The notes under the pieces: model-generated
What the model saw: only the letters and a program-made list of their open reading frames with translations
Told to the model about the DNA's origin: nothing
Database searches by the model: none
NCBI GenBank assembly: GCA_043381765.1
Contig: JBHJMP010000678.1
Span: 1-49,226, forward strand
DNA: 49,226 nt
Direction of reading: 5' to 3'
DNA from: Collodictyon triciliatum
Taxonomy: Eukaryota
Part shown: piece after piece, positions 1,369 through 49,226 of the stretch
How the letters are laid out: the number at the start of each line of letters is the position of its first letter
Numbering within the stretch: the first letter of the stretch is position 1
Program-made: the position numbers and the translations under genes

Positions 1369-1648
1369 GCGTGAAGCGTGTCGTTGATCGCAACTTGTCA
1401 GTTTCAGTGTTTTTTCACCTTGTAGCCTTTCTATAAAAAAACTGGAGCTTTATTCTATATAAAAACAGCTGTGTTAAAAAANNNNNNNNNNNNNNNNNNN
1501 NNNNNNNNNNNNNNNNNNNNNNNNNNNNNNNNNNNNNNNNNNNNNNNNNNNNNNNNNNNNNNNNNNNNNNNNNNNNNNNACAAAAACAAAAACAAATAGT
1601 ATGATTGAGTCATAGATTTCAAATATGCAGCATGTGCTGAACGGGCAC

Positions 1649-14449: not shown

Positions 14450-16536
14450 ATGGAAGACTTTGCAGCACACGACTCCGAGTCCGTCGTCCAAAATGCATCG
14501 CGGTTTCTCGAAGCCCTAGATTACAGGCACACCCAACGAGAGCTTCTACTCGACAAAGTTGTTGCCCAGTCAAATATGTTTTCTGTCTTCCACTAGCCGG
14601 TTTTTTTATTTTAATATATTTATTATCTCAATCTAGCGTGTTTTTTTTTTCGGACACATATTATATTGTCTATATCGACTCACATTCATGTCACAAACAT
14701 ACTTTTTCCCTCGCCTCTTGGCGCTGAAGTTACAACATGCCTGGCATTTTGTGCTTGCTTGTTATTCTATACACACCACTTCTGCTTGTTTCCTCCCTCA
14801 TACATTTTCCCCCTATACCATTCATATCTTCTGTTATCATGTATTCTCTCGATTTTTAGCCACTCATTGATTCCACAGATATCCGAACTGAGCGAAGAAC
14901 TCGATGCGGAAATAACCCAATCATCAGAAAATGCAAAAGAGCATGTTCGCAAGTTAAGGAGTGGCATGGTATCCCAGGTAAAAATTTGAACGTAGGATTG
15001 AGATGCTTTTTTTTTTCACTTTTGTTTGATTACATGTCTCCACCAAGGCCGATTTCGTAAAACATTATTTTACGTCAAACAAATGAATTCTATTATTTTT
15101 TTGATATTCTTTAAATACGAAATGTGATAAAAAACTATTTTCTTTTGGACTATGAGCGAATATAGTTTAATCGAAATATTATGCACACTTGTCTCAAAAT
15201 TTTGAAAATAACAAAATAACAAAGACTTTGATCAAAAGAAGTAATTTTGGTGGTGTTCGCTTGTATTGTTAAAATATCTATTCAAAATATTCTTATATTT
15301 TCCCAGAGATAATTATTGAAAGCTGAATTGTTTTAAGGTAGAAAACTAGTTCTGTTTTACTAATTCAAAAACAATATCGTGCGCAAGGCCCGTCTTCTGC
15401 GTTCGATTCACACAAAGAAACTGGCTTCCCAAGAGGTTGACACACAATTCATGTTGCGTCACTACCAGCGAGTGTCTGAAACTCCTCTTCATACCAACAG
15501 CAACCAGAAAGGGCAGATGCTCGATGCATACCGTGTATTTAGTACTGCAAATGAGAGAATAATCGACAACACTGATGCAGCAGGAAACATTCGAATTTAT
15601 ATGCCAAAGTCAATCAAAATCAGAACCACTGCCCTGAGTGAGTCTGAAGATGGCTCAGAATGGGTCAAGAGTGGATTCTTTACCATTAACAGAGACATAG
15701 GACCTCACAATCCAGGTCCCAGTATACTATCTGCTGGTAGCGGACCGACGAGAGCCTTTCGCACAGGAGTACCGCTTTCGCACCCTTTTGGAATCGCAGT
15801 TCATCCGACAACAGGAAACCTGTACGTCACAGACAAGGACAACCATTGCGTGCGTGTACTAGACCGTGACTTGAAGCTGCTCGAAACATTTGGTTCAAAA
15901 GGAAGTCTTATCGGAGAGTTTGATAACCCGCGCGGTATCTCCATCAGCGCTGATGGGGACTGGCTTGCTGTGGTAGAGTTTTTCAATCACCGGGTGCAAA
16001 TATTTCAAACATCAACAAATAAGGTGGTGAGGATCGTAAGCGAAAAGGGAGAGGCACCAGGGAAACTCACAAGCCCCACCGGAGTTGCCTTTGATTCCGA
16101 CAACTTTGTCTATGTGACAGATGAAGACAATCATCGGATTCAGAAATTCTCTCTTGAGGGCGAATTCGTCAAGGTTTTCGGGGAAGCTGGCAATCCTGGT
16201 GCTTGCAAAGACGGGCTGGGTATAGTCATCAACGATTTTTCTGAGGTTCTCGTGGCCCCTAGGTCCGAAAAGCTTATCAAGGCCTACACTCTAGATGGCG
16301 ACTTTCTGAGAGACATCACAATCCCTGGGAAGGGCGGCAACTGGAACTTTTTATCCCGCGGGCCAAGAGGCGGGTTCGTGCTTGGTGACTATGACAGCGG
16401 CAAGGTGTTTTTCGTGGATTCTGCTGGCTCTGTTATCCACGAAATGACAGCACCGAGTGCCTGTGGAGTTGCATTTGGTCCTGACCAGTCACTTTATGTC
16501 GTCCTCACTCGTTCAAGCGAAGTTCATAAATACTAA
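14450..16536 (+). CDS. Coiled-coil plus NHL-repeat beta-propeller protein (TRIM-NHL-like C-terminus; no RING or B-box seen)
   Basis: Exons about 14450-14557, 14879-14977 and 15388-16536 are in phase 0. NHL repeats: LSHPFGIAVHPTTGNLYVTDKDNHCVRV, FDNPRGISIS, LTSPTGVAFDSDNFVYVTDEDNHRIQKF. TAA stop. Confidence 0.85.
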
Positions 16537-19900: not shown

Positions 19901-22900
19901 GCATATGGGTTCGTGAGACATCACCGCTTCCAAGACCACAATCATTTCCGTTGATACAAAATCCTGGGAATTTATTCCGTAATTATATTTTTTTTGAAAC
20001 GAAGCAAAGAGCATACAAATAGATATTTTTATATATTCCTCTTCATTTTTACTAGTGTCACATACTGTTTATATAGTAAATAAAAATCAAATGATTTCTT
20101 ATCTTGAATTAATAAATATGAAGTCCAATTCACAAACCGGCGCTCTGAAGTGGATGCAGAAGTCAGTGACCTGGCTAAAAAGCTGGTTTCTATCCAGGAT
20201 ATATACACAAGTGTATGTAAATACCATTCATTCATTACTCGATGCGCAAAGCCAGTTCTGTGATATTTGGTTAATGAGTCTGAAGTCGCAAAACTTTCGT
20301 TTTTGTACATTTCATACCAACAGCAAAAATACATATCCTGGATTCACACTGCCGATGCTGTTTTGCATTCATTCTTCAGACTAATACAACCGACCGACCG
20401 AGAGGTTTCTTTCCAACATAGAGTATATAATATATCCCTCTGTAGTTGCTCTAACAGTAAACAAGATTTTATTTAAGATTTTGCCAAAATATATCATATA
20501 GACTCTGGCTCTCTTCAATCAGATTATTTGGGTGTATCACGATATAACCATGTTTTACATCGAGCACGGTATATTGTAATTTTCTTGGATATACTTTCAT
20601 ATGTGTGCTATGAAAGCAAAGACATGCACGCATCCTTTAAGGAAGTGTTCTTCATTAATGCTCTTTTCTTGTCATTTTAACCAGGTAACTACGAGTCGGC
20701 GAGTATAACCATCAGAAAGTTGGACAATCTAATCAGTGTATGGGGCTCAAGCCTACCCGATGAGTTAAAGTATATGGTTTCGAACATCATGGCTCTCGTG
20801 AATTTCTTGTAAGAATAAGTGATCCTGAATTTTATGATATCAATTATTACCGTCCTTTGGGGCTTAATTTATTGACAAAGATACTTAAATGCTTAATTGC
20901 TGTCAATTTAATTGAAGGAAGGAAAAGTACACACATGCGTTGATTCAACTTCAAAAGTCGTTCAAGATTATACATGGCAGAGTACTAACCTCACATAGAA
21001 AAAAAATTATTGCTGGCTCAATTGTTATGACATTCTTGGTAATCTGAACTCTGAGCTTAGTATATTCATAAATGTCTTCACTTTATATAGAGCTCGCTCA
21101 ACGTTCTGGAGACCCATATTCGATTTGCCTGCGTCTATCTTAATAGCAAAAAGTACTATTGGTTGATATAGATGTATAATTTAGAAAGTAAATACACCTG
21201 AATAATACAGTTCTGATAATTATTTTTGAGCCTTGCACTAAGTGATATGTAGTCAAGCAGAGTGCCTGAAGCATCTCAATTTCTCTCAACAGTTATGCGA
21301 AGACACGGAAAAACAAATAGCAAAGGGTAAGATACATTCTTATCTCTTTCTTGTTTTTGTTATGTTTTTTTTGTTTTTTTGTTTGTTTTTTGTTTGTTTT
21401 TTGTTTGTTTTTTGTTTGTTTTTTGTTTGTTTTTTGTTTGTTTTTTGTTTGTTTTTTGTTTGTTTTTTNNNNNNNNNNNNNNNNNNNNNNNNNNNNNNNN
21501 NNNNNNNNNNNNNNNNNNNNNNNNNNNNNNNNNNNNNNNNNNNNNNNNNNNNNNNNNNNNNNNNNNNNAAAAAAAAAAAAAAAAAACCAAAAAAAACCAA
21601 AAAAAACCAAAAAAAACCAAAAAAAACCAAAAAAAACCAAAAAAAACCAAAAAAGGAACCCTGGAAAAATGTGCGCAAACGATTGAAGCCTTTTAATAAT
21701 ACTAGTCCATACCGGAATTCATTTATACTTCATTCTTGCATAAATATGGAATGCAAGAAATTGCTGAAAAGGTGAGGGCTTTATCCGTAGGGTGGTTTAA
21801 CAATTTTCGTAACAGTGGCAACATTTTCCACTTTTTCTTCCCATTTTTGAAAAAAAAAATGTTATTTGAATCGTTTGTATCGATGTGTGTAGCACCTCTG
21901 TGAACTACTAGAATCTGTGCATGAAAATTCTGCAGAGAAAAGAATTCGCATGTTTGGGAGGTTCTGTGGATTGTTCGACAACCTACCCACCCTGTATCTA
22001 AATGTGTACCTGTATCCAACCAGCGACAAATATCAATACAGAGAACACAATTATTATGACTAGGTCTTTCATGATGTACCATCCCAATAATACTAACATT
22101 ATTACCAGATTTATCTCCTTGACTGAAAAAAAATGCACAAGACATTGCCTTGGAAAAGCAACGGCCGTGACAAATAGCATCAATATGGAGGATAGAGAAA
22201 CTGGACTGATTCTTCTTCTTACCCAGAGAGCTGTCGAAATTCTTCCGAGCCTCTCTTCTCGTATTTCTGGGTCAAGGCTCTTGAAGTACACAAATGATTA
22301 TAGCAAACTCACAATGTCCGACTAGGAGAGAAAAATGGTGGTATTTGATGAGAATATTTCTCAAAATACTTATATTTAGACTCAAGGAAGATATCGTTTC
22401 AAAATCCGTACCGCTACGAAGCTCACCGGAATCGATACTTGCGCATCTCCCCGAAGTTCGCTCAATGCTTTTGGTGAGAACCCAAAAACGCATTAATTAT
22501 AGGCACTCATTTATCTTTCAATACTAAATCAATGAGCAAATGAAAGGATTCCTTGACACAGCCAACTACATATTTGCCAAAAGTGGATACATCAATCAAA
22601 GTAATTTGCTCATAATGCCATTTTTTTTTTTATTAAAAAACAATAATGGTGATAAAAAAAATCCTTGTTTTCTTTGCCAATATAAACGCATATCAAATGT
22701 ACAAGGTAATTGAGTTTGACCTATTCATGGAACTGGTCTTTCTATACATGCGCATGGACTATGGAGATGAAAAAAAATATATTGACAAACTATTTTTGGC
22801 TGGGTAAGCATAATTTCCCCCTCGCTCATTTTGGTAGTCCCTCAGAGTCCATTCCTTCCAAACTCCACAATTAGATCCTTGACATTTTCCTTTCAAAATA

Positions 22901-31498: not shown

Positions 31499-32242
31499 TT
31501 TCTTGTAGGAGGGGAACAATATTCCATACTATTACTAATTATTTAGTTTCAAAAATTTGAATTCGCTTAGATTCTGATTATCCATTATTTTTCGCTGAAG
31601 AGGTCGAAGGAAAAGTCGCCTTTCCAAGGATCCACCAACACCGCCGAATCGCGCCTGCTACGAAAGCATCCTTCATTCTCGCGATTCTGCCGGCCGCGGA
31701 CGCACNNNNNNNNNNNNNNNNNNNNNNNNNNNNNNNNNNNNNNNNNNNNNNNNNNNNNNNNNNNNNNNNNNNNNNNNNNNNNNNNNNNNNNNNNNNNNNN
31801 NNNNNNNNNNNNNNNNNNNNNNNNNNNNNNNNNNNNNNNNNNNNNNNNNNNNNNNNNNNNNNNNNNNNNNNNNNNNNNNNNNNNNNNNNNNNNNNNNNNN
31901 NNNNNNNNNNNNNNNNNNNNNNNNNNNNNNNNNNNNNNNNNNNNNNNNNNNNNNNNNNNNNNNNNNNNNNNNNNNNNNNNNNNNNNNNNNNNNNNNNNNN
32001 NNNNNNNNNNNNNNNNNNNNNNNNNNNNNNNNNNNNNNNNNNNNNNNNNNNNNNNNNNNNNNNNNNNNNNNNNNNNNNNNNNNNNNNNNNNNNNNNNNNN
32101 NNNNNNNNNNNNNNNNNNNNNNNNNNNNNNNNNNNNNNNNNNNNNNNNNNNNNNNNNNNNNNNNNNNNNGTATATAATTTTAGTCAGTGCAATAAATCTT
32201 CTATTAAAATATGTGCCCTGTTTTGATAATCTTTCTTCCTAG

Positions 32243-40014: not shown

Positions 40015-41662
40015 GCACAATCGTGTACCATGGTACTCAGAAATCAATAATATTACCCTACCAAGGATTATCTGAGCTGGCAATCTCTTGTACAAATATA
40101 TTCACTTTGCTTCTCCGACACTGCCAGCCACCAACACGCCCACACGTCTACAAGAAATGATAAGAAAAGGGAGAGAATGGAAGGCCGTCCTTGTATCAGA
40201 TTATACCGCACATAGACGCCAATAGCACAAATGGATTTTTATGGATGACAACGTCGTATTCCCTTTCTTGTTTACCTCTTTTTCGCCCTCAAATCTCATC
40301 CAATGCCGAATCCTACTGCGCGGATAACTATTATATTCCCCTTTTCTCACCCTTTCTCTCTCTCCCCATTCCTCTTCCTCTTCCTCTCTTTCTCCCTCTT
40401 CCTCGACCATGCAACTGTCACATGTACCTCTATAAATCGATATAGAAACTCTCATCAATCCGCATAGGCCATCCCTGCAACCGCGCCCTTTGCGCTGCAA
40501 AAGAAGCCAGGCAGCCGAGAAGTCAGGACTTTTGGGATGGGAACTGCGGTATTCACAAAAGTCCTCAACATTCAGTGAATCGAATCCTAAAGATGGCAGA
40601 CCTTCCAGATTTGGGCAATTTGACATGTGGCCGGAGGCATGTTCCACACCACAGACCAACACAATTTGGATACAGGTTGGACACACGGAACAGGAGAAAG
40701 AGGTTGAAATTGTGGTGTGAGTCTCGAAACTCACATGTTGCAGAGTTGTGTCTTTTTTTTTTTTCCTTCATTTTCTTATCTTTTTATAGAGAGGCCTTTT
40801 GATAAGAGATAAAATAAAATGTACTATCGTGTGAATCGGTATTCTTTCTGTCCTTATTATTATTATTATTTTTTTATTATTATTATTATTGTTTAATTGA
40901 ATTCGATTGGATATTTGTTAAGTTCCTATTTCTGTTGTGGTTGTTTTATTCATGTATTTATTTGTGCGTGCGGTGGAAACAAAACGAACCGGTTTTCTTT
41001 GGTTGTTTTTCTGCCGTGCCGTTCCGTTCCGTTCGATTCAGTTTAGTTCCGTTCGATTCAGTTCGGTTCTATTTTGACGAGATTTTATTCAGACGAAATA
41101 CATGTTTGATACGTCTCTATGATTCCTGACCTGCTTGCTTGTCTTTATCTTCTTCGCTGCTCAAGCAATGCTTGGAAGAAAACAAACCCACATGAGATGG
41201 AGCGAAGGTTAAAGAAAGAAGAAAGAAAAAAAAAAGGAAAAGAAGCGAAGCTAGGTTTTGTTTGTTTGAGCTCAGCACATTCTGCAATGCCCTTCCTGTT
41301 TTTCTATCAAGCACAGCGAACTAACCAAACCAAAACGAAGTGAGACGAAACAGAAGATTATCGGAAGCGCAGCGGATAATGAATGTAAAATAATGTTAGT
41401 GATTAGTAGATAGAATATGTATACACGGATGCTAAAACTGCTATATTCGCAACTGAACAGCTTCTGTCTAGCATAAATGAATATGACGAAAACGCGTATA
41501 TTTACCGTCATAGGACAAGAAAAATAAACAAAATCTAGATATAAACACGAAAGCAACGCCTCCTTCAAAATCGCCCTGTTCATCTATCTTATAAAATACC
41601 TGCTTTTTCCCTAATAAAAAATCAACAACAACAACCATCACAGCACATAGGAAACCCGACAA

Positions 41663-42706
41663 ATGCAGCCATTCCAGCAGACACAAAGCCTCCCACCAAA
41701 ACGCTCTGTAGGTTGGACACAGCAGGAGGATCAACTATTGATGGAAGCTGTGCAATCACAGCTATCAAACCGATCACAGTCATCACAACCACATTCGCCA
41801 GGGCCAATCACACCCACTTCCACCGCCATCACAACACCAACGTCATCATCATTCCCATCACAGACGCTATATTCACAATCTTTGGAATTCTCTGCTTTTC
41901 AAACAGGAACGCCATCGACACCATCACCATCTCAGTCGTTGGCGTCATATTCACAATCACAGTCACAATCATCACAGTCACAATCACAATCACAATCACA
42001 ATCTTACCGAGCTCCATCCATCTCGTGGAGCGCCGTTTCCGCACACATCTCGCAGGCTTCCCAGCACCGCTTCACACGGACATCCAAGCAGTGTGCCCAG
42101 CGATGGTTGCGTGTGTTGGACCCAAAGATTTCGCGCCTTGCTTGGACATCCGATGAAGACGCCATTCTGCATCAGACTGTCGACCGCTACGGCGTTTCCT
42201 GCTGGAGTCGGGTGGCTCTTCGCCTGCCCGGACGAACAGACATTCAGTGCCGCAGTCGTTGGCTGCATCTTTGCCAGACCGAGCGCGACCGCATGGCTGC
42301 CCAGTCGCAGATGCTTCAGACATATCGGCCCAGTCAATCTCACTCTCTTCAATCGCAAACGCTCCAGTACAGTCAATCACAATCACAATCACAATCACAA
42401 TCACAATCCCAGTCGCAGCCTTTTCAGCCTCAAGATTACAAACCCAGTCGATCACAGCTTGCGACCGATGCACCAACCTCGCTTGTCTCCTCTGCTATGT
42501 CTGCATCTACTTCTTCGTCTTCGTCGTCGTCTTCTGCTTCGCTCTTGCTACTTCGTCCGGCTTCTTTGAGTCGCGTGTCCATTCAGAATCTCCTCAATGC
42601 GGATGAGCAGGGGCAAACAGCAAGCTCGCATGTTGATGCAGGTACGGGCGGAAGTTTGCAGCAGGAGCTTCAAAAGCGAAAGAGGCGGTCGGATGGCTCA
42701 TATTAG
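41663..42706 (+). CDS. Intronless two-repeat Myb transcription factor, S/Q-rich
   Basis: 347-aa ORF: GWTQQEDQLL...ISWSAVS...RTSKQCAQRWLRVLDPKISRLAWTSDEDAILHQTVDRYGVSCWSRVALRLPGRTDIQCRSRW; C-terminal KRKRR; TAG stop. Confidence 0.92.
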   Translation: MQPFQQTQSLPPKRSVGWTQQEDQLLMEAVQSQLSNRSQSSQPHSPGPITPTSTAITTPTSSSFPSQTLYSQSLEFSAFQTGTPSTPSPSQSLASYSQSQSQSSQSQSQSQSQSYRAPSISWSAVSAHISQASQHRFTRTSKQCAQRWLRVLDPKISRLAWTSDEDAILHQTVDRYGVSCWSRVALRLPGRTDIQCRSRWLHLCQTERDRMAAQSQMLQTYRPSQSHSLQSQTLQYSQSQSQSQSQSQSQSQPFQPQDYKPSRSQLATDAPTSLVSSAMSASTSSSSSSSSASLLLLRPASLSRVSIQNLLNADEQGQTASSHVDAGTGGSLQQELQKRKRRSDGSY

Positions 42707-44050: not shown

Positions 44051-44266
44051 TCACTGCTCCACCTCAGCCGGTTCTTCGGTGATTTCTTCGATAGTGAATT
44101 GTGGTTGTAATTCTTCGCGTTCATCCATGTCGTGCACTAGAGGGAATTTTAATACTTTTGTTATATTTCTCCTTTCCTAATATTTCGAGGGCTGAATTTT
44201 ATGTACGTTCGTTTTTTAATTTAATTTTTTTTCATTTCTTGTTTCTCTTTGCGAGTATTTGTAAGG

Positions 44267-44308
<42 letters not shown>

Positions 44309-47300
44309 CATATATATGAATATTGTCCTCTTACTTTCGACTTTCTCGTATCCTTTGGTTGGTAAGACACGGGGAAGAGATGGGGTGATGGAGGGTTCCT
44401 ATTTTTCACGACAATTATCGGTGTTTGAACGGAATGAATTAAATAATAATAATTATAATAATAATAATATAAATTTAACCATAATCATAAAATGTAAAAG
44501 GGCTGTCTTATCTAATGAATCCAGTTGCACAAAAAAGAAAAGAAAAAAAAGACAATACAGTACAGTACATTGGTAATTATTATTTTGTAATGAAACTGAA
44601 ACCTCGCCCAGCATGAAGAACCATACAAAGAGAACCCCCACACCAGAAAGAATCATCAGAACGAATCCAATCACCCTGAATACACATAATTAGACTAGAA
44701 CATTGCAGAAAGACGAGAAAAGAATCCCAAAACTATGACTTCCTTCCTTCTTTTCCCTTCTTTTTTTATGTCTTGGCATTTTCTTTAGTTGTTGTTGCAG
44801 CCAATATTAGCTGATGTTAACTGACAACCCCCGAGATAAACTACAGCAGAAATGGATACATATGTATACCAAAAAAAAAAAATGAGGAGTGAGAAGAAAG
44901 ATAAAAGGACATACCATTTACTCCCATCGTCGGCAAACAAATCGGCCATCACAAGTGCGACAATAGACATGAGCTTGAGGAGGATGTTGAGAGACGGGCC
45001 GGACGTGTCCTTGAACGGGTCTCCTACTGTATCGCCAGCGACGAGTGCCTTGTGCGTTTCAGAGCCTTTGCCGCCGTATTCACCGCTCTCGCAAAACTTC
45101 TTTGCATTGTCCCACGCCCCTCCCGCATTGGCCATCACGACAGCAAGGAGAAATCCAGACACAATCGAGCCAACCAGCATCCCGGTCAGTGTGATGGACC
45201 CGAAGCCAAACCCGATTACGCAGGGCGAAATCACAGCCAACAACCCGGGAAGAAGCATTTCGCGAAGAGCAGAGGTGGTGCTGATGTCCACGCACCGTGC
45301 ATAGTCGGCTTTGGCACCCGGCAGCCCTTCTTTGAGCCCTTCAATCTCGGCAAACTGGCGCCGGATTTCTTGGATGATTTGCTGGGCAGCTTTCCCGACT
45401 GCAGTCATGGTCAGGGAGGCAAACAGGAACGGCAGGACGGCTCCGATAAGGAGACTGTGAGCGCATGGGCAGAAAGTATTGGTGGTATTTGGTTTAGTTA
45501 GGTTATGCGATAGTGGTGATGATGGTGATGGTGATGGTGATGGTGATGGTGATGGTGATGGTGATGGTGATGATGGTGTGTTTGAGAAAAGGATATGGAA
45601 GGCATACCCAAGGATAACATTTATATTCTGTACAATATCGATTTCGACATCTTCAAGACCAGCAGCCTGGCGTGGATAATACAGATGGTTGATTAGTGGT
45701 TAAAAGAAAAAAGGGGGAAATTGAAGGAAATGGAAAATTACAAACAATTTATTCCAGCTTAGACTGTATTATTTTTCTTTTTTCTTTTTTCTTTTTTCTT
45801 CTGAAAAATCTGAACTACATAGATTGTTTGTCATTCATTAATATTAAAAGAAAAAAATTTTTTTAAAAAAAAAACGAGGTGAGAGTATCCTTTTGGTGTG
45901 AATCTTTCGCTTTCATTAATTTACAGTCTGTCAAACATTCATGCAATCCCTCTATGCACCCAAGTGTCTATAAAAGTCCTCGCAGGTATGCAAGTGTTTA
46001 CCTTTGTGAACGCCTTCATCAAGGCAATTGCCGTCAAAACTGCAGAGCCGATGGCGAACCCTTTCCCAGTGGCCGCAGTGGTATTTCCCAGCGCATCGAG
46101 GGCGTCCGTCCTCTGTCGGACCCGCGGGTCCAACTCGGCCATTTCTGCGATTCCACCAGCATTGTCTGCAACTGGGCCGTATGCGTCTGTGGCCAGTGTT
46201 ACGCCCAACGTGGATAGCATTCCAACAGGCGCAATCGCTGTGCCGAAATCTCCGTCCAGCGCATCGCATACCAGAATCGTGATGACGAGAATCACAGCTG
46301 AAGGAACTGCACTCCACATGCCCACAGCGAGTCCCTGGATAATCACAGTAGCTGGGCCAGTTCGACCGGCCTGCGCGATGGACTGTGTGGGCCAGTATGC
46401 AAACGATGTTGTAAACTCGGTAAAGTATCCAATCAGAATTCCTACGTCACACATAAGAGGATTAAATGAACGAAGAATAATATGGAGTTGACTTCAGAAA
46501 AGTTAACTAGAAATACGGGAATATACAGTTCGGCTGCTATCAAAAGATATGATAAAGTAGGAATTAGATGTCAAAAGTAAAGGATAAGTGCATGAGTTTA
46601 TGGTGCCCAGACAGGATTTTGATGAGGGAAATAAATAAATTAGATGGTTAAGTCATGAACAAACCGGAAACAAGCCCTGTGACTATGCAGAAGTATGTTT
46701 CCACGCCAAAGTGAAGCGATGATACAATTGGATAGCCCAAAACTGAAAAAAACGAAAGTAAGTCGTAATTAGTTTCTATAAAATCTTTCAGAGAAAAACT
46801 TTTTATCGAACGTGACAAGCAATTGCAGCAGGAAGATTACGCAATCATCTCTTAAGAGTCCGAAATCACACCCAAGAGAGTCAAAAAAAAAATCCATTTA
46901 ATTTAATTTGTATATGGCCGATAGACGAGCGAGAAAATAAAGATACACATACCAATCACGATTGCGGAGGAAACGATGACCCCGAGTCTCATGGCGAACA
47001 AAAGGTCGTTTTGGGAGGCATTCTCCTTTGTGCGAACAAAAAGCGAGCCGATTAAAGAGGCGAGGATTCCCAGGCCACAAATCCAGAAAGGGAGGGCAAT
47101 GGCTTCAGTGCTGTTTTCTTTTTCCACGGAACCAATGGAAGCAGCGGCAATGACACAGCCGACATATGATTCAAACAAATCTGCACCCATTCCAGCAACA
47201 TCACCGACATTGTCACCGACGTTATCAGCTATAACACCCTGTTTTATATTATTTTTTTCAATCATAATGACACCCAAACGATTACAAATGAAAGTAATTC

Positions 47301-49079
47301 TTTTTGGCAAGGATTATGAGGCACATTAGAAAGACGCCAATATGGAAATGTGCTTATGTATGCATCTAATTGTATTCATCATTGCGATAGTGACGATTAT
47401 GGTGATTTTTACAGGATTGCGTGGGTCATCTTCTGGAATGCCAGCCTCAACTTTTCCAACAAGGTCGGAGCCAACGTCGGCTGCCTTTGTATATATTCCA
47501 CCCCCGACTCGCGCAAACAGAGCAATGGACGACGCACCCATTCCAAAACCTGCGAGCTGCTCTGTGTTTTCGATGGCAAGGTATGTAAATGATAGAGACA
47601 CAATCCCAAATCCAACCTGGATGTATTTGAATGTTATTAACAAATGAAAAAAATAATTGTGACACCGAGAAGGAAAAAGGCAAGTGTCCTTTTGAAATGC
47701 TAACTAATTTTAATACTGGTGGTCGAGTGAGTTATGATGTGATGATATTAAAAAAAAAAAAGGATAGTCTAGAATAGAGCCGCACCACAGAGAAGCCCAT
47801 GACGGAACCGGAGCGGAAGGCAACGCGCAATGCAGGATTCAGTCCAACTTCAGCCGCTACAGGAGTTAATTCAAAGTAAAGTTGAGCAACATTTTAGAAG
47901 AAAAAATATGTGGTTGTGCAGAGAACCTGTATTTGCATAGGTTTGATTGATTCAGTTGTAAACCCCTTTTCTTTTTTCTTTTTCTTTTTTTCTTTTTCTT
48001 CTTTTTCTTTTTCTTTTTCTTTTTCTTTTTCTTTTTCTTTTTCTTTTTCTTTTTCTTTTTCTTCTTTTTCTTTTTCTTTTTCTTTTTCTTTTTCTTTTTC
48101 TTTTTCTTTTTCTTTTTCTAATTCTAATTCTAATTCTAATTCTAATTCTAATTCTAATTCTAATTCTAATTCTAATTCTAATTCTAATTCTAATTCTAAT
48201 TCTAATTCTAATTCTAATTCTGGTGTAAAGGTGCCTTTTCTAACCCATTGAAAAAAAAACATTTGTGGACTTCAGTATCATCATGTATAATAGGATACAA
48301 TACGAACCAGCCGCAGTTCGGACGTTGGCTCGGACGGCCATGAACATGCCCAGAAACCCGGTCAAAGAAGAAACAAAGGCGCCCACAAGAAAGCACCCCG
48401 CTACCATCAAGGAGAGCGAGGACAAATGTAAGTGTGGAAAATTCGTATGTGTCGCTCTGAATCCACCGGAGAAAAAAGGAATGCATTTAAAATAAAATAA
48501 CGCATGAACAAAGAAAATCCTTGTGTATAATCAAAAGAAAAAGAAAAGATGCATATGAGTTTGCGATTGGACAGAAATGGACCATTTTGTTTTAAAGGAG
48601 AGTGTTAGATTTCTAATCCCAAAGTCAAAACAAAAATAAGTGATAGGCAAGATGAGCCAGATTTGTTGAAACAACAGTACCAGAAGTCTCCAAACAATAA
48701 AAAAAAATATCAAATAAAAAACTAATTAATTAATTATAGATAAATAGATACAAATATATAAAAGAAAAGAAAGAAATAGAAATAGAAATAGAATCTAAAT
48801 AGAAATGAATCCCATACCTGTGGGTCCGTCCACCACTGCCGCAAGGATCACACTCGTGACCACCACAAAGACGCCGATGTAAGTGTATTCTCGCTTGAGG
48901 AATGCACGGGCGCCAATCTGAATCGACTTTGCGATCTCTTGCATTTTTGCGCTTCCGCACGGCTCACGCAACACAAGGATTCCCAGGACAAGCGCACTCA
49001 CGAGTCCCACAAAGCCCCCGGCAAGACCCACAGACACAATGTCCTGGCTGCTCAGCTCGTGCGGCTCTTCTGTGCTCAT
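44051..49079 (-). CDS. hppA: Membrane-integral cation-translocating pyrophosphatase, K+-dependent, Na+-PPase-type signature, about 12 exons
   Basis: [123 protein letters not shown]. All junctions are GT-AG and in frame. The exact 3' end (TGA at 44051) is less certain. Confidence 0.95.
45512..45577. repeat. (GATGGT)n intronic microsatellite
   Basis: Directly visible. Confidence 0.95.
47966..48220. repeat. Compound hexamer repeat (TTTTTC)n followed by (TAATTC)n in PPase intron 2
   Basis: Directly visible. Confidence 0.95.
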
Positions 49080-49128: not shown

Positions 49129-49226
49129 TTTGTTGATTTGTTGATTTGTTGATTTGTTGATTTGTTGATTTGTTGATTTGTTGATTTGTTGATTTGTTGA
49201 TTTGTTGATTTGTTGATTTGTTGATT
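49129..49226. repeat. (TTTGTTGA)n octamer repeat upstream of the PPase ATG
   Basis: About 12 perfect units running to the window end. Confidence 0.95.

What the first reader, a model, noticed from the sequence alone, without database searches (positions are those of the whole stretch)
44051..49079. Intron-containing eukaryotic membrane PPase with the signature of prokaryotic Na+-pumping PPases
Seen: the K+ determinant is Ala ([10 protein letters not shown], codon 46074-46076), and TM6 reads [10 protein letters not shown] (Glu codon 47170-47172) with no Glu one helical turn later. Established: K+-dependent plant and protozoan H+-PPases have DLFGSxAE, and K+-independent H+-PPases have GNTTKA. 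Ala combined with DLFES is the pattern of Na+-PPases (Thermotoga/Methanosarcina type), whose characterised members are, to my knowledge, prokaryotic. The compact loops ([15 protein letters not shown]...[10 protein letters not shown]) also look bacterial. About eleven spliceosomal introns argue against bacterial contamination. Inference: a PPi-driven sodium pump in a eukaryote, possibly acquired laterally.
Basis: partly seen in the sequence, partly recalled or inferred. Interest (0 to 1): 0.8.

Follow-up and report, generated by a model that had tools for sequence, protein, structure and literature searches.

The report
Protist membrane pyrophosphatase with sodium-type gate
This is a real, spliced protist gene for a pyrophosphate-driven ion pump whose ion gate looks like that of bacterial sodium pumps; it belongs to a widespread eukaryotic group that was already noticed in print but has never been tested biochemically.

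Summary
A 12-exon, 11-intron minus-strand gene (49079-44051) encodes an intact 751-aa membrane pyrophosphatase (mPPase). Ala 12.46 lies at 46076-46074, Glu 6.53 at 47172-47170, and position 6.57 is Gly. A near-identical 2350-nt contig in a public run joins introns 3-11 at the modelled GT..AG sites.

The protein lies outside the plant-type E6.57 clade. It sits in a well-supported clade of eukaryotic sequences: Diphylleia, Rigifila, Gefionella, Ancyromonas, Diplonema, Cantina, Chattonella, Bathycoccus and diatoms. That clade nests among bacterial E6.53 enzymes of a Caldilineaceae-like group. Its gate residues equal those of the Methanosarcina K+-dependent enzyme.

- Ala 12.46 plus Glu 6.53 also occurs in some K+-dependent H+ pumps (PMC5150537, PMC6882861).
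- A recent transfer is unlikely.
- Probable eukaryotic Na+-PPases in prasinophytes and diatoms were reported in silico in 2020 (PMC7438732).

New here are the clade's reach into heterotrophic protists and a clade-wide extra C-terminal helix (27 of 30 rows). Na+ transport is inferred, at about 0.55, not shown.

The parts
48818..49079 (-). Exon 1, from the ATG at 49079-49077; N-terminus and TM1-2
   Evidence: Donor is GT. Homology to P0302, P0003 and P0005 is continuous across the junction. No displayed read evidence for this junction.
48308..48400 (-). Exon 2
   Evidence: The X1 contig's loose end at 47857 equals window 48309-48338, so the exon 2 to exon 3 junction is confirmed.
47786..47856 (-). 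Exon 3
   Evidence: Joint 47614|47784 (cut +2) in the X1 contig.
47413..47616 (-). Exon 4 (TM5, cytoplasmic loop with EDDPRNP)
   Evidence: Joints in the X1 contig.
46953..47238 (-). Exon 5 (DNVGDNVGD motif and TM6 with D6.50, E6.53, S6.54, G6.57)
47170..47172 (-). Glu 6.53 codon (GAA), residue 233 of the model
   Evidence: Aligned against Gly in Vigna radiata H+-PPase, whose Glu lies four residues later.
46665..46742 (-). Exon 6
46002..46441 (-). Exon 7 (TM10-12 with the [11 protein letters not shown]+-dependence signature)
   Evidence: 148.9 bits to TmPPase, 143.1 to VrPPase.
46074..46076 (-). Ala 12.46 codon (GCG), residue 454 of the model
   Evidence: Lys occupies this column in K+-independent rows such as Methanosarcina L006.
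45608..45666 (-). Exon 8
   Evidence: Joints in the X1 and X2 contigs.
44915..45454 (-). Exon 9 (TM13-16 with [20 protein letters not shown]16.46 and K16.50)
44603..44675 (-). Exon 10: extra hydrophobic segment [22 protein letters not shown], a putative 17th transmembrane helix
   Evidence: 27 of 30 rows of the eukaryotic clade have such a segment. The AlphaFold2 model of the Diphylleia orthologue P0302 has a helix at 688-713; 10-residue block mean pLDDT is 86, 94 and 90 over residues 681-710. Joints.
44335..44398 (-). Exon 11: C-terminal tail with GYEKV
   Evidence: GY is shared with P0302, P0003 and P0004. Its reading as a YxxPhi sorting motif is inference only.
44051..44136 (-). Exon 12: acidic C-terminal tail and TGA stop
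   Evidence: Joint 44136|44335 in the X1 contig. This tail is longer than in Diphylleia P0302.

Best explanation
This is a genuine, spliced nuclear gene of a protist close to Diphylleia (collodictyonids, CRuMs). It encodes an intact K+-dependent membrane pyrophosphatase. The enzyme would work as the family does: a dimer whose 16-helix core hydrolyses Mg-pyrophosphate at the cytoplasmic face and drives a cation through a gated channel out of the cytoplasm. Its ionic gate (D6.50, E6.53, S6.54, N16.46, K16.50, with Gly at 6.57) is the Na+-binding type. So the pumped ion is most likely Na+, alone or together with H+. The gene belongs to a eukaryote-wide clade that nests among bacterial E6.53 enzymes of a Caldilineaceae-like group. 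Nearly all members of that clade have gained a 17th C-terminal helix and a charged tail. The tail would then face the cytoplasm, given that both termini of the 16-helix core face away from it (recalled from memory, no call), and could serve sorting or regulation. Shown: the gene, its splicing, intact catalytic residues, gate residues and clade membership. Inferred: Na+ as the ion, the membrane it sits in, and the role of the extra helix.
For: Gene model and splicing. Intactness: 62 of 62 invariant columns conserved. The fold of orthologue P0302 has mean pLDDT 91.6 and TM-score 0.86 to TmPPase and 0.85-0.86 to VrPPase. K+ signature A12.46/G12.49 and gate residues are identical to the Methanosarcina K+-dependent enzyme L008. 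Its M. mazei counterpart is named a bona fide Na+ pump in PMC7438732 and PMC11486809 (passages). The TmPPase Na+ site is formed by D6.50, E6.53, S6.54 and D16.46 (PMC5150537). Trees: in the 85-row IQ-TREE PMSF tree the window sits with Diphylleia a (100) and in a CRuMs set of 5 (99). It lies in a 30-row eukaryotic clade (98), then joins Caldilineaceae (97), and a 45-row set with Methanosarcina_A (88). The plant-type clade of 8 is separate (100). In the 58-row tree the eukaryotic clade (82.9) is sister to 3 rows of the Caldilineaceae phylum (99.2), then joins 5 more prokaryote rows (98.3), and Methanosarcina_A joins at 99.1. Among the 120 closest database hits, 120 of 120 have [10 protein letters not shown], and 81 of the 82 that span TM6 have Glu at 6.53. 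PMC7438732 places Bathycoccus and Ostreococcus sequences with bona fide Na+-PPases. Bathycoccus P0271 is in the window's clade.
Against: The signature is shared by K+-dependent H+-PPases of the C. hydrogenoformans type and by Na+/H+ co-transporters. No characterised enzyme of those types could be put in my trees. The only functional anchor is an unnamed-species Methanosarcina orthologue, and in one of three trees (46 rows) it did not group next to the window's clade. Overall similarity does not favour the Na+ pump. P0003 scores 555 bits to VrPPase, 521 to TmPPase and 487 to PaPPase. Identity of the model to all three is 40-44%. An AU test did not reject joining the eukaryotic clade with the plant-type clade (delta lnL 43, p 0.085). 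TmPPase has Asp at 16.46 where the window has Asn, as VrPPase has. Some clade members (Gefionella P0109, P0128) lack Glu at both 6.53 and 6.57, so function varies within the clade. Diphylleia and several relatives are, from my recall, freshwater organisms, which gives no obvious need for a Na+ pump.
Confidence: 0.55

Rival explanations
1. It is a K+-dependent H+ pump that keeps Glu at 6.53, like the Carboxydothermus hydrogenoformans enzyme. It would acidify a vacuole, an acidocalcisome or a contractile-vacuole compartment, as other eukaryotic mPPases do.
For: Reviews list K+-dependent H+-PPases with E6.53. All eukaryotic mPPases characterised so far are described as H+ pumps in organelle membranes (PMC6882861 passages; PMC11593465 abstract). 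Similarity to VrPPase is slightly higher than to TmPPase. N16.46 is as in VrPPase. The AU test does not reject a sister relation to the plant-type clade.
Against: The clade's nearest named functional anchor is the Methanosarcina K+-dependent type, in 2 of 3 trees. Its gate residues are identical to the window's. PMC7438732 groups Bathycoccus and Ostreococcus members with bona fide Na+-PPases. The Glu shift to 6.57 that marks the plant-type lineage is absent.
Confidence: 0.35
2. It is a dual Na+/H+ co-transporter like the Bacteroides vulgatus type. This overlaps with the best explanation and is separated here only for the ion stoichiometry.
For: It has the same E6.53 and A12.46 signature.
Against: The residues said to define that subfamily could not be checked. 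Luoto 2013 and Nordbo 2016 are not held. No reference sequence was available.
Confidence: 0.15
3. It is bacterial contamination, or a recent lateral transfer into this one organism.
For: The nearest prokaryotic relatives are at 59-62% identity in a Caldilineaceae-like group.
Against: There are eleven GT..AG introns with AT-rich composition, and a spliced contig. An orthologue at 83% identity and a paralogue occur in Diphylleia transcripts, and an orthologue in Rigifila. The eukaryotic clade is monophyletic. The neighbouring ORFs encode NHL-repeat and Myb-like domains.
Confidence: 0.02

Closest known systems
Probable Na+-PPase orthologues of marine prasinophytes (Ostreococcus, Bathycoccus) and diatoms, reported in silico by Perez-Castineira and Serrano 2020 (PMC7438732)
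   Same: Same clade. Bathycoccus P0271 and the diatoms Fragilaria, Nitzschia and Cylindrotheca fall with the window in the 30-row clade (SH-aLRT 98). The gate and K+ signatures are the same.
   Different: The window comes from a heterotrophic protist close to Diphylleia, not a marine alga. It carries the extra C-terminal helix that Bathycoccus lacks. None of these proteins has a published ion assay in the library searched.
K+-dependent Na+-PPases of Methanosarcina mazei and Thermotoga maritima (PDB 4AV3, 5LZQ)
   Same: Same fold (TM-score 0.86), A12.46, and D6.50, E6.53, S6.54, K16.50. N16.46 is as in the Methanosarcina orthologue.
   Different: Identity to TmPPase is only 40-42%. TmPPase has D16.46. 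The window is eukaryotic, has introns, and has a 17th helix and a tail. Ion transport is untested.
Plant and protist vacuolar K+-dependent H+-PPases (Vigna radiata, PDB 4A01; AVP1 type)
   Same: Same fold, K+ signature and N16.46, with 43-44% identity. Both are eukaryotic.
   Different: In that type the Glu is at 6.57 (DLFGSYAE). The window has Glu at 6.53 and Gly at 6.57. The plant-type rows form a separate clade (100).
Carboxydothermus hydrogenoformans-type K+-dependent H+-PPase
   Same: A12.46 together with E6.53, according to reviews.
   Different: No sequence was available to me, so relatedness is unknown. This is the main unresolved alternative.

Membership tests
Membrane-integral pyrophosphatase (Pfam PF03030, H_PPase) | Sequence match to the family models | tested here: met
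   Exons 5, 7 and 9 match NCBIfam mPPase models at E 4e-27 to 8e-84. All 120 closest hits carry PF03030.22. Pfam was not run on the window's own exons: one search failed on a frame error and only NCBIfam was re-run.
Membrane-integral pyrophosphatase (Pfam PF03030, H_PPase) | Conserved catalytic and coupling residues and the 16-helix fold | tested here: met
   The window keeps 62 of 62 invariant columns of alignment A1. The model of orthologue P0302 superposes on TmPPase and VrPPase at TM-score 0.85-0.86. The fold was predicted for the orthologue (83% identical), not for the window's joined protein.
K+-dependent mPPase subfamily | Ala at 12.46 and Gly at 12.49 (GNTTAAxGKG), not Lys and Thr | tested here: met
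   [10 protein letters not shown], Ala codon at 46076-46074. Rule from PMC6882861 and PMC5150537 passages.
Na+-PPase | Semi-conserved Glu at 6.53 with D6.50, S6.54, D/N16.46 and K16.50 | tested here: met
   This is necessary but not sufficient.
Na+-PPase | Position within the clade of characterised Na+-PPases | tested here: inconclusive
   The Methanosarcina K+-dependent orthologue groups with the window's super-clade in 2 of 3 trees (88, 99.1, not). T. maritima, Moorella and other characterised enzymes could not be included.
Na+-PPase | Na+-dependent hydrolysis and Na+ transport | not testable with these tools
   This needs vesicle assays.
Plant-type K+-dependent H+-PPase | Glu at 6.57 (DLFGSxAE) | tested here: not met
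   The window has Gly at 6.57. It lies outside the 8-row plant-type clade (100). A sister relation of the two clades is not rejected (AU p 0.085).
K+-independent H+-PPase | Lys at 12.46 and Thr at 12.49 | tested here: not met
Na+/H+-PPase (Bacteroides vulgatus type) | Subfamily signature residues and clade position | not tested
   The defining papers are not held and no reference sequence was available.

The most novel reading that the evidence does not exclude
Eukaryotes carry a third, old lineage of membrane pyrophosphatase beside the plant-type and K+-independent H+ pumps. It would be a PPi-driven primary Na+ pump taken once from a Chloroflexota-like bacterium and then fitted with a 17th helix and a cytoplasmic tail for sorting. 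It is now found from CRuMs, malawimonads and ancyromonads to diplonemids, stramenopiles and green algae, freshwater species included. PPi-energised Na+ transport would then be a widespread, overlooked part of eukaryotic ion homeostasis.
Probability: 0.3. Interest if true: 0.65.

Novelty: new member of a known kind. Interest (0 to 1): 0.45.

Why it matters
In the reviews I read, Na+-pumping pyrophosphatases are treated as prokaryotic (for example the PMC11593465 abstract). A eukaryotic one would be a new class of primary Na+ pump in eukaryotes, with consequences for salt tolerance engineering and for ideas on early bioenergetics. This window adds an intron-bearing genomic copy with spliced-contig support from a deep-branching heterotrophic lineage. 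It shows that the clade is much broader than marine algae. It also points to a clade-specific extra helix that any expression or localisation study should take into account. The window does not settle which ion is pumped.

Tried and rejected
- No whole genome is held for the window. I therefore could not ask whether the organism also has plant-type or K+-independent mPPases.
- The look-up of sequencing runs gave 'no RNA holder listed'. The kind of runs X1-X3 is only guessed.
A part beside it was laid.
- NCBIfam names do not discriminate. Twelve of the 13 matching models, all but TIGR01104 (V-type H+-PPase), are called 'sodium-translocating pyrophosphatase'. For P0003 both NF001960 and TIGR01104 pass their cut-offs.
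- Bit scores and TM-scores to solved Na+ and H+ pumps are too close to tell them apart.
- I tried to name prokaryotic representatives so as to find characterised species. This gave only MAG names: Deltaproteobacteria, Cyclobacteriaceae, Woesearchaeota, Kapabacteria.
- The single genome-contig scan returned 5 loci, one Caldilineaceae and four Methanosarcina. No T. maritima, C. hydrogenoformans or B. vulgatus sequence could be fetched.
- The key primary papers are not held: Luoto 2011, Luoto 2013 (two papers) and Baykov 2013. What I say of them is recalled or taken from reviews.
- treekit's AU test on 85 rows did not finish, and the last run was killed. An IQ-TREE run with 1000 bootstraps timed out. 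The AU test reported comes from fast searches on 46 rows under LG+F+G4.
- Three notes from earlier scans concerned prokaryotic mPPases on other genomes and did not bear on this gene.
- Supplementary files of PMC7438732, which may list the algal accessions, were not seen.
Full report
**What is there**

The minus strand between 49079 and 44051 carries a gene of 12 exons and 11 introns. Every intron has GT..AG ends, and the introns are 153-451 nt long. The joined reading frame is open for 751 codons and ends in TGA. Exons are 53% GC and introns 30%. Several introns hold microsatellites.

Ala of [10 protein letters not shown] is GCG at 46076-46074. Glu of [10 protein letters not shown] is GAA at 47172-47170. 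The residue one helical turn later is Gly.

**Evidence for splicing**

I laid three public runs on 44051-47940.
- One 2350-nt contig of run X1, with four mismatches in its listed pieces, joins across all nine introns of that stretch at the model's junctions.
- An 895-nt contig of run X2 shows four of these junctions.
- The X1 contig's loose end is exon 2 sequence, which confirms intron 2.
- Intron 1 rests on homology only.
- The runs' kind is only guessed as RNA, but an intron-less joined form plainly exists.

**Whose gene it is**

The closest protein is a Diphylleia rotans transcript product from EukProt (P0001 and its full-length form P0302). It is 83% identical to the window's model over 728 aligned residues. 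A second Diphylleia paralogue (P0003) and a Rigifila ramosa protein (P0005) come next. The window therefore comes from a relative of Diphylleia in the CRuMs group. The rest of the window has ORFs with NHL-repeat and Myb-like domains, microsatellites and three scaffold gaps. Contamination and recent bacterial import can be set aside.

**Is the enzyme intact, and of which kind**

All 62 columns that are invariant in a 46-sequence alignment spanning the family are kept in the window. An AlphaFold2 model of orthologue P0302 has mean pLDDT 91.6. It superposes on the Thermotoga Na+ pump and the Vigna H+ pump equally well, at TM-score 0.85-0.86 and 40-44% identity.

The K+ signature is that of K+-dependent enzymes (A12.46, G12.49). 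The ionic gate reads D6.50, E6.53, S6.54, G6.57, N16.46, K16.50. The alignment to solved Vigna radiata H+-PPase shows its DLFGSYAE against the window's DLFESYVG. An A-type mPPase from a Methanosarcina genome (L008) has the same six residues as the window. The M. mazei enzyme of this type is a bona fide Na+ pump according to PMC7438732 and PMC11486809 (passages). That L008 is its orthologue is my inference, because the genome holds one A-type and one K-type gene side by side.

**Why the signature alone does not decide the ion**

Li et al. 2016 (PMC5150537, passages) and Holmes et al. 2019 (PMC6882861, passages and Table 1) state three things.
- E6.53 occurs in Na+-PPases and in Na+/H+-PPases.
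- E6.53 occurs in K+-independent H+-PPases.
- K+-dependent H+-PPases occur with E5.43, with E6.53 (Carboxydothermus hydrogenoformans) or with E6.57.

Baykov et al. [quoted passage not shown] The reviews therefore differ in emphasis.

**Phylogeny**

A HMMER scan of 1.84 billion representatives with P0003 gave 20104 relatives at E up to 0.001. I used the best 150. To these I added 25 of the 120 hits (named diatoms, MMETSP and EukProt transcripts), the Caldilineaceae MAG protein, three Methanosarcina ORFs (two A-type, one K-type) and the window's model.

*FastTree, 174 rows.* The window sits in a 5-row set (100), inside 62- and 64-row sets (98 and 99).

*IQ-TREE, 85 rows, 683 columns, LG+C20+F+G4 PMSF, SH-aLRT only.*

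| Group containing the window | Rows | SH-aLRT |
|---|---|---|
| Window plus Diphylleia a | 2 | 100 |
| CRuMs set | 5 | 99 |
| Eukaryotic clade | 30 | 98 |
| Plus the Caldilineaceae protein | 31 | 97 |
| Plus unnamed, presumably prokaryotic rows | 34 | 95 |
| Plus further such rows | 41 | 94 |
| Set that includes Methanosarcina A-type | 45 | 88 |

The 8 plant-type (E6.57) rows form their own clade (100).

Of the 30 rows in the eukaryotic clade, 12 carry eukaryote names: Diphylleia (two paralogues), Rigifila, Gefionella, Ancyromonas, Diplonema, Cantina, Chattonella, Bathycoccus, Fragilaria, Nitzschia and Cylindrotheca. One row is the window. The other 17 are unnamed; one of them is an MMETSP transcript, and most of the rest lie on contigs of about 2-3 kb.

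*IQ-TREE, 58 rows, fast search, LG+F+G4.* This set adds five more proteins from the Caldilineaceae phylum. In that phylum 143 of 151 genomes have an mPPase, and seven places match at 59-62% identity. The 20 eukaryotic rows stay together (82.9). They are sister to three rows of that phylum (99.2). Five more prokaryote rows join next, three of them from that phylum (98.3). Methanosarcina A-type joins at 99.1.

**Results against a clean story**
- In the 46-row tree Methanosarcina A-type grouped elsewhere.
- An AU test did not reject forcing the eukaryotic clade and the plant-type clade together (delta lnL 43.0, p 0.085).
- The backbone of the K+-dependent subfamily is short-branched and weakly resolved.
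- No characterised T. maritima, C. hydrogenoformans or B. vulgatus sequence could be placed.

**Reading**

It is a member of a broad eukaryotic clade derived from, or sister to, bacterial E6.53 enzymes. The nesting suggests one old transfer from a Chloroflexota-like donor into eukaryotes. The root and the direction are inferred, not tested. The transfer is not specific to this organism.

After TM16 the window's protein continues with a 22-residue hydrophobic segment (exon 10) and a charged tail (exons 11-12). Counts of rows with such a segment come from the 85-row set.

| Group | Rows with a hydrophobic 19-mer beyond TM16 |
|---|---|
| Eukaryotic clade | 27 of 30 |
| Plant-type rows | 0 of 8 |
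| All other rows | 3 of 47 |

The three exceptions in the eukaryotic clade are Bathycoccus, Fragilaria and a truncated row. The Caldilineaceae protein ends 20 residues after K16.50.

In the P0302 model this segment is a confident helix at 688-713. As I recall, both ends of the 16-helix core face away from the cytoplasm. A 17th helix would then bring the tail to the cytoplasmic side. A role in sorting (the tail holds GYEKV) or in regulation is my inference. Reviews speak of 16-17 helices in the family in general (listing), so I do not claim that the helix count itself is new.

**Novelty**

Perez-Castineira and Serrano 2020 (PMC7438732, passages read) make three relevant statements.
- In silico analyses suggest Na+-PPases in Prasinophyceae and diatoms.
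- Biochemical validation was under study.

My searches of the held library found no later assay of a eukaryotic member. Subscription journals and supplements were not visible.

The window is thus a new member of a clade that is known in silico but uncharacterised. The breadth of the clade across heterotrophic deep-branching protists and the clade-wide extra helix are, as far as these searches show, not in print.

**Verdict**

I estimate Na+ or Na+/H+ pumping at about 0.55 and an H+ pump with E6.53 at about 0.35. Interest is moderate.

Noticed in passing
P0109 (Gefionella okellyi), P0128, P0182; alignment columns of window residues 233 and 237: Three members of the same eukaryotic clade have Gly at both 6.53 and 6.57 and no Glu in the TM5 motif either. 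The semi-conserved gate Glu seems to be missing or moved to an unknown place.
   Followed up: partly
window 44603-44675 and 44051-44398: Extra C-terminal hydrophobic helix plus a charged tail. It is shared by 27 of 30 rows of the eukaryotic clade and is absent from the bacterial sister and from plant-type enzymes.
   Followed up: partly
P0001/P0302 and P0003: Diphylleia rotans transcripts encode two paralogues of this pump, 73% identical to each other. The window is the orthologue of the P0302 type.
   Followed up: partly
window 47960-48225 and 45507-45584: Long compound microsatellites lie inside introns 2 and 8: TAATTC-like and CTTTTT-like units, and a CACCAT-like run. The first one blocked read laying.
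   Followed up: no
window 49130-49226: A tandem 9-10 nt repeat (AATCAACAA-like on the minus strand) runs from just upstream of the start codon to the window's end.
   Followed up: no
window 1482-1579, 21469-21568, 31706-32169: Three runs of N (scaffold gaps).
   Followed up: no
window 15364-16536 (+) and 41651-42706 (+): A long open frame with NHL repeats (E 5e-22) and another with two Myb-like DNA-binding domains (E 6e-21) and a serine/glutamine-rich repeat. These are probably neighbouring genes.
   Followed up: partly
window 45840-45875: A low-complexity A/T-rich patch in intron 7 attracts very deep short contigs from run X3 (depth up to about 3800). X3 holds next to none of the gene, so these are unrelated low-complexity matches.
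   Followed up: no
L006 and L008 (genome G001, Methanosarcina): A K-type and an A-type mPPase gene lie about 1.2 kb apart on opposite strands.
   Followed up: no
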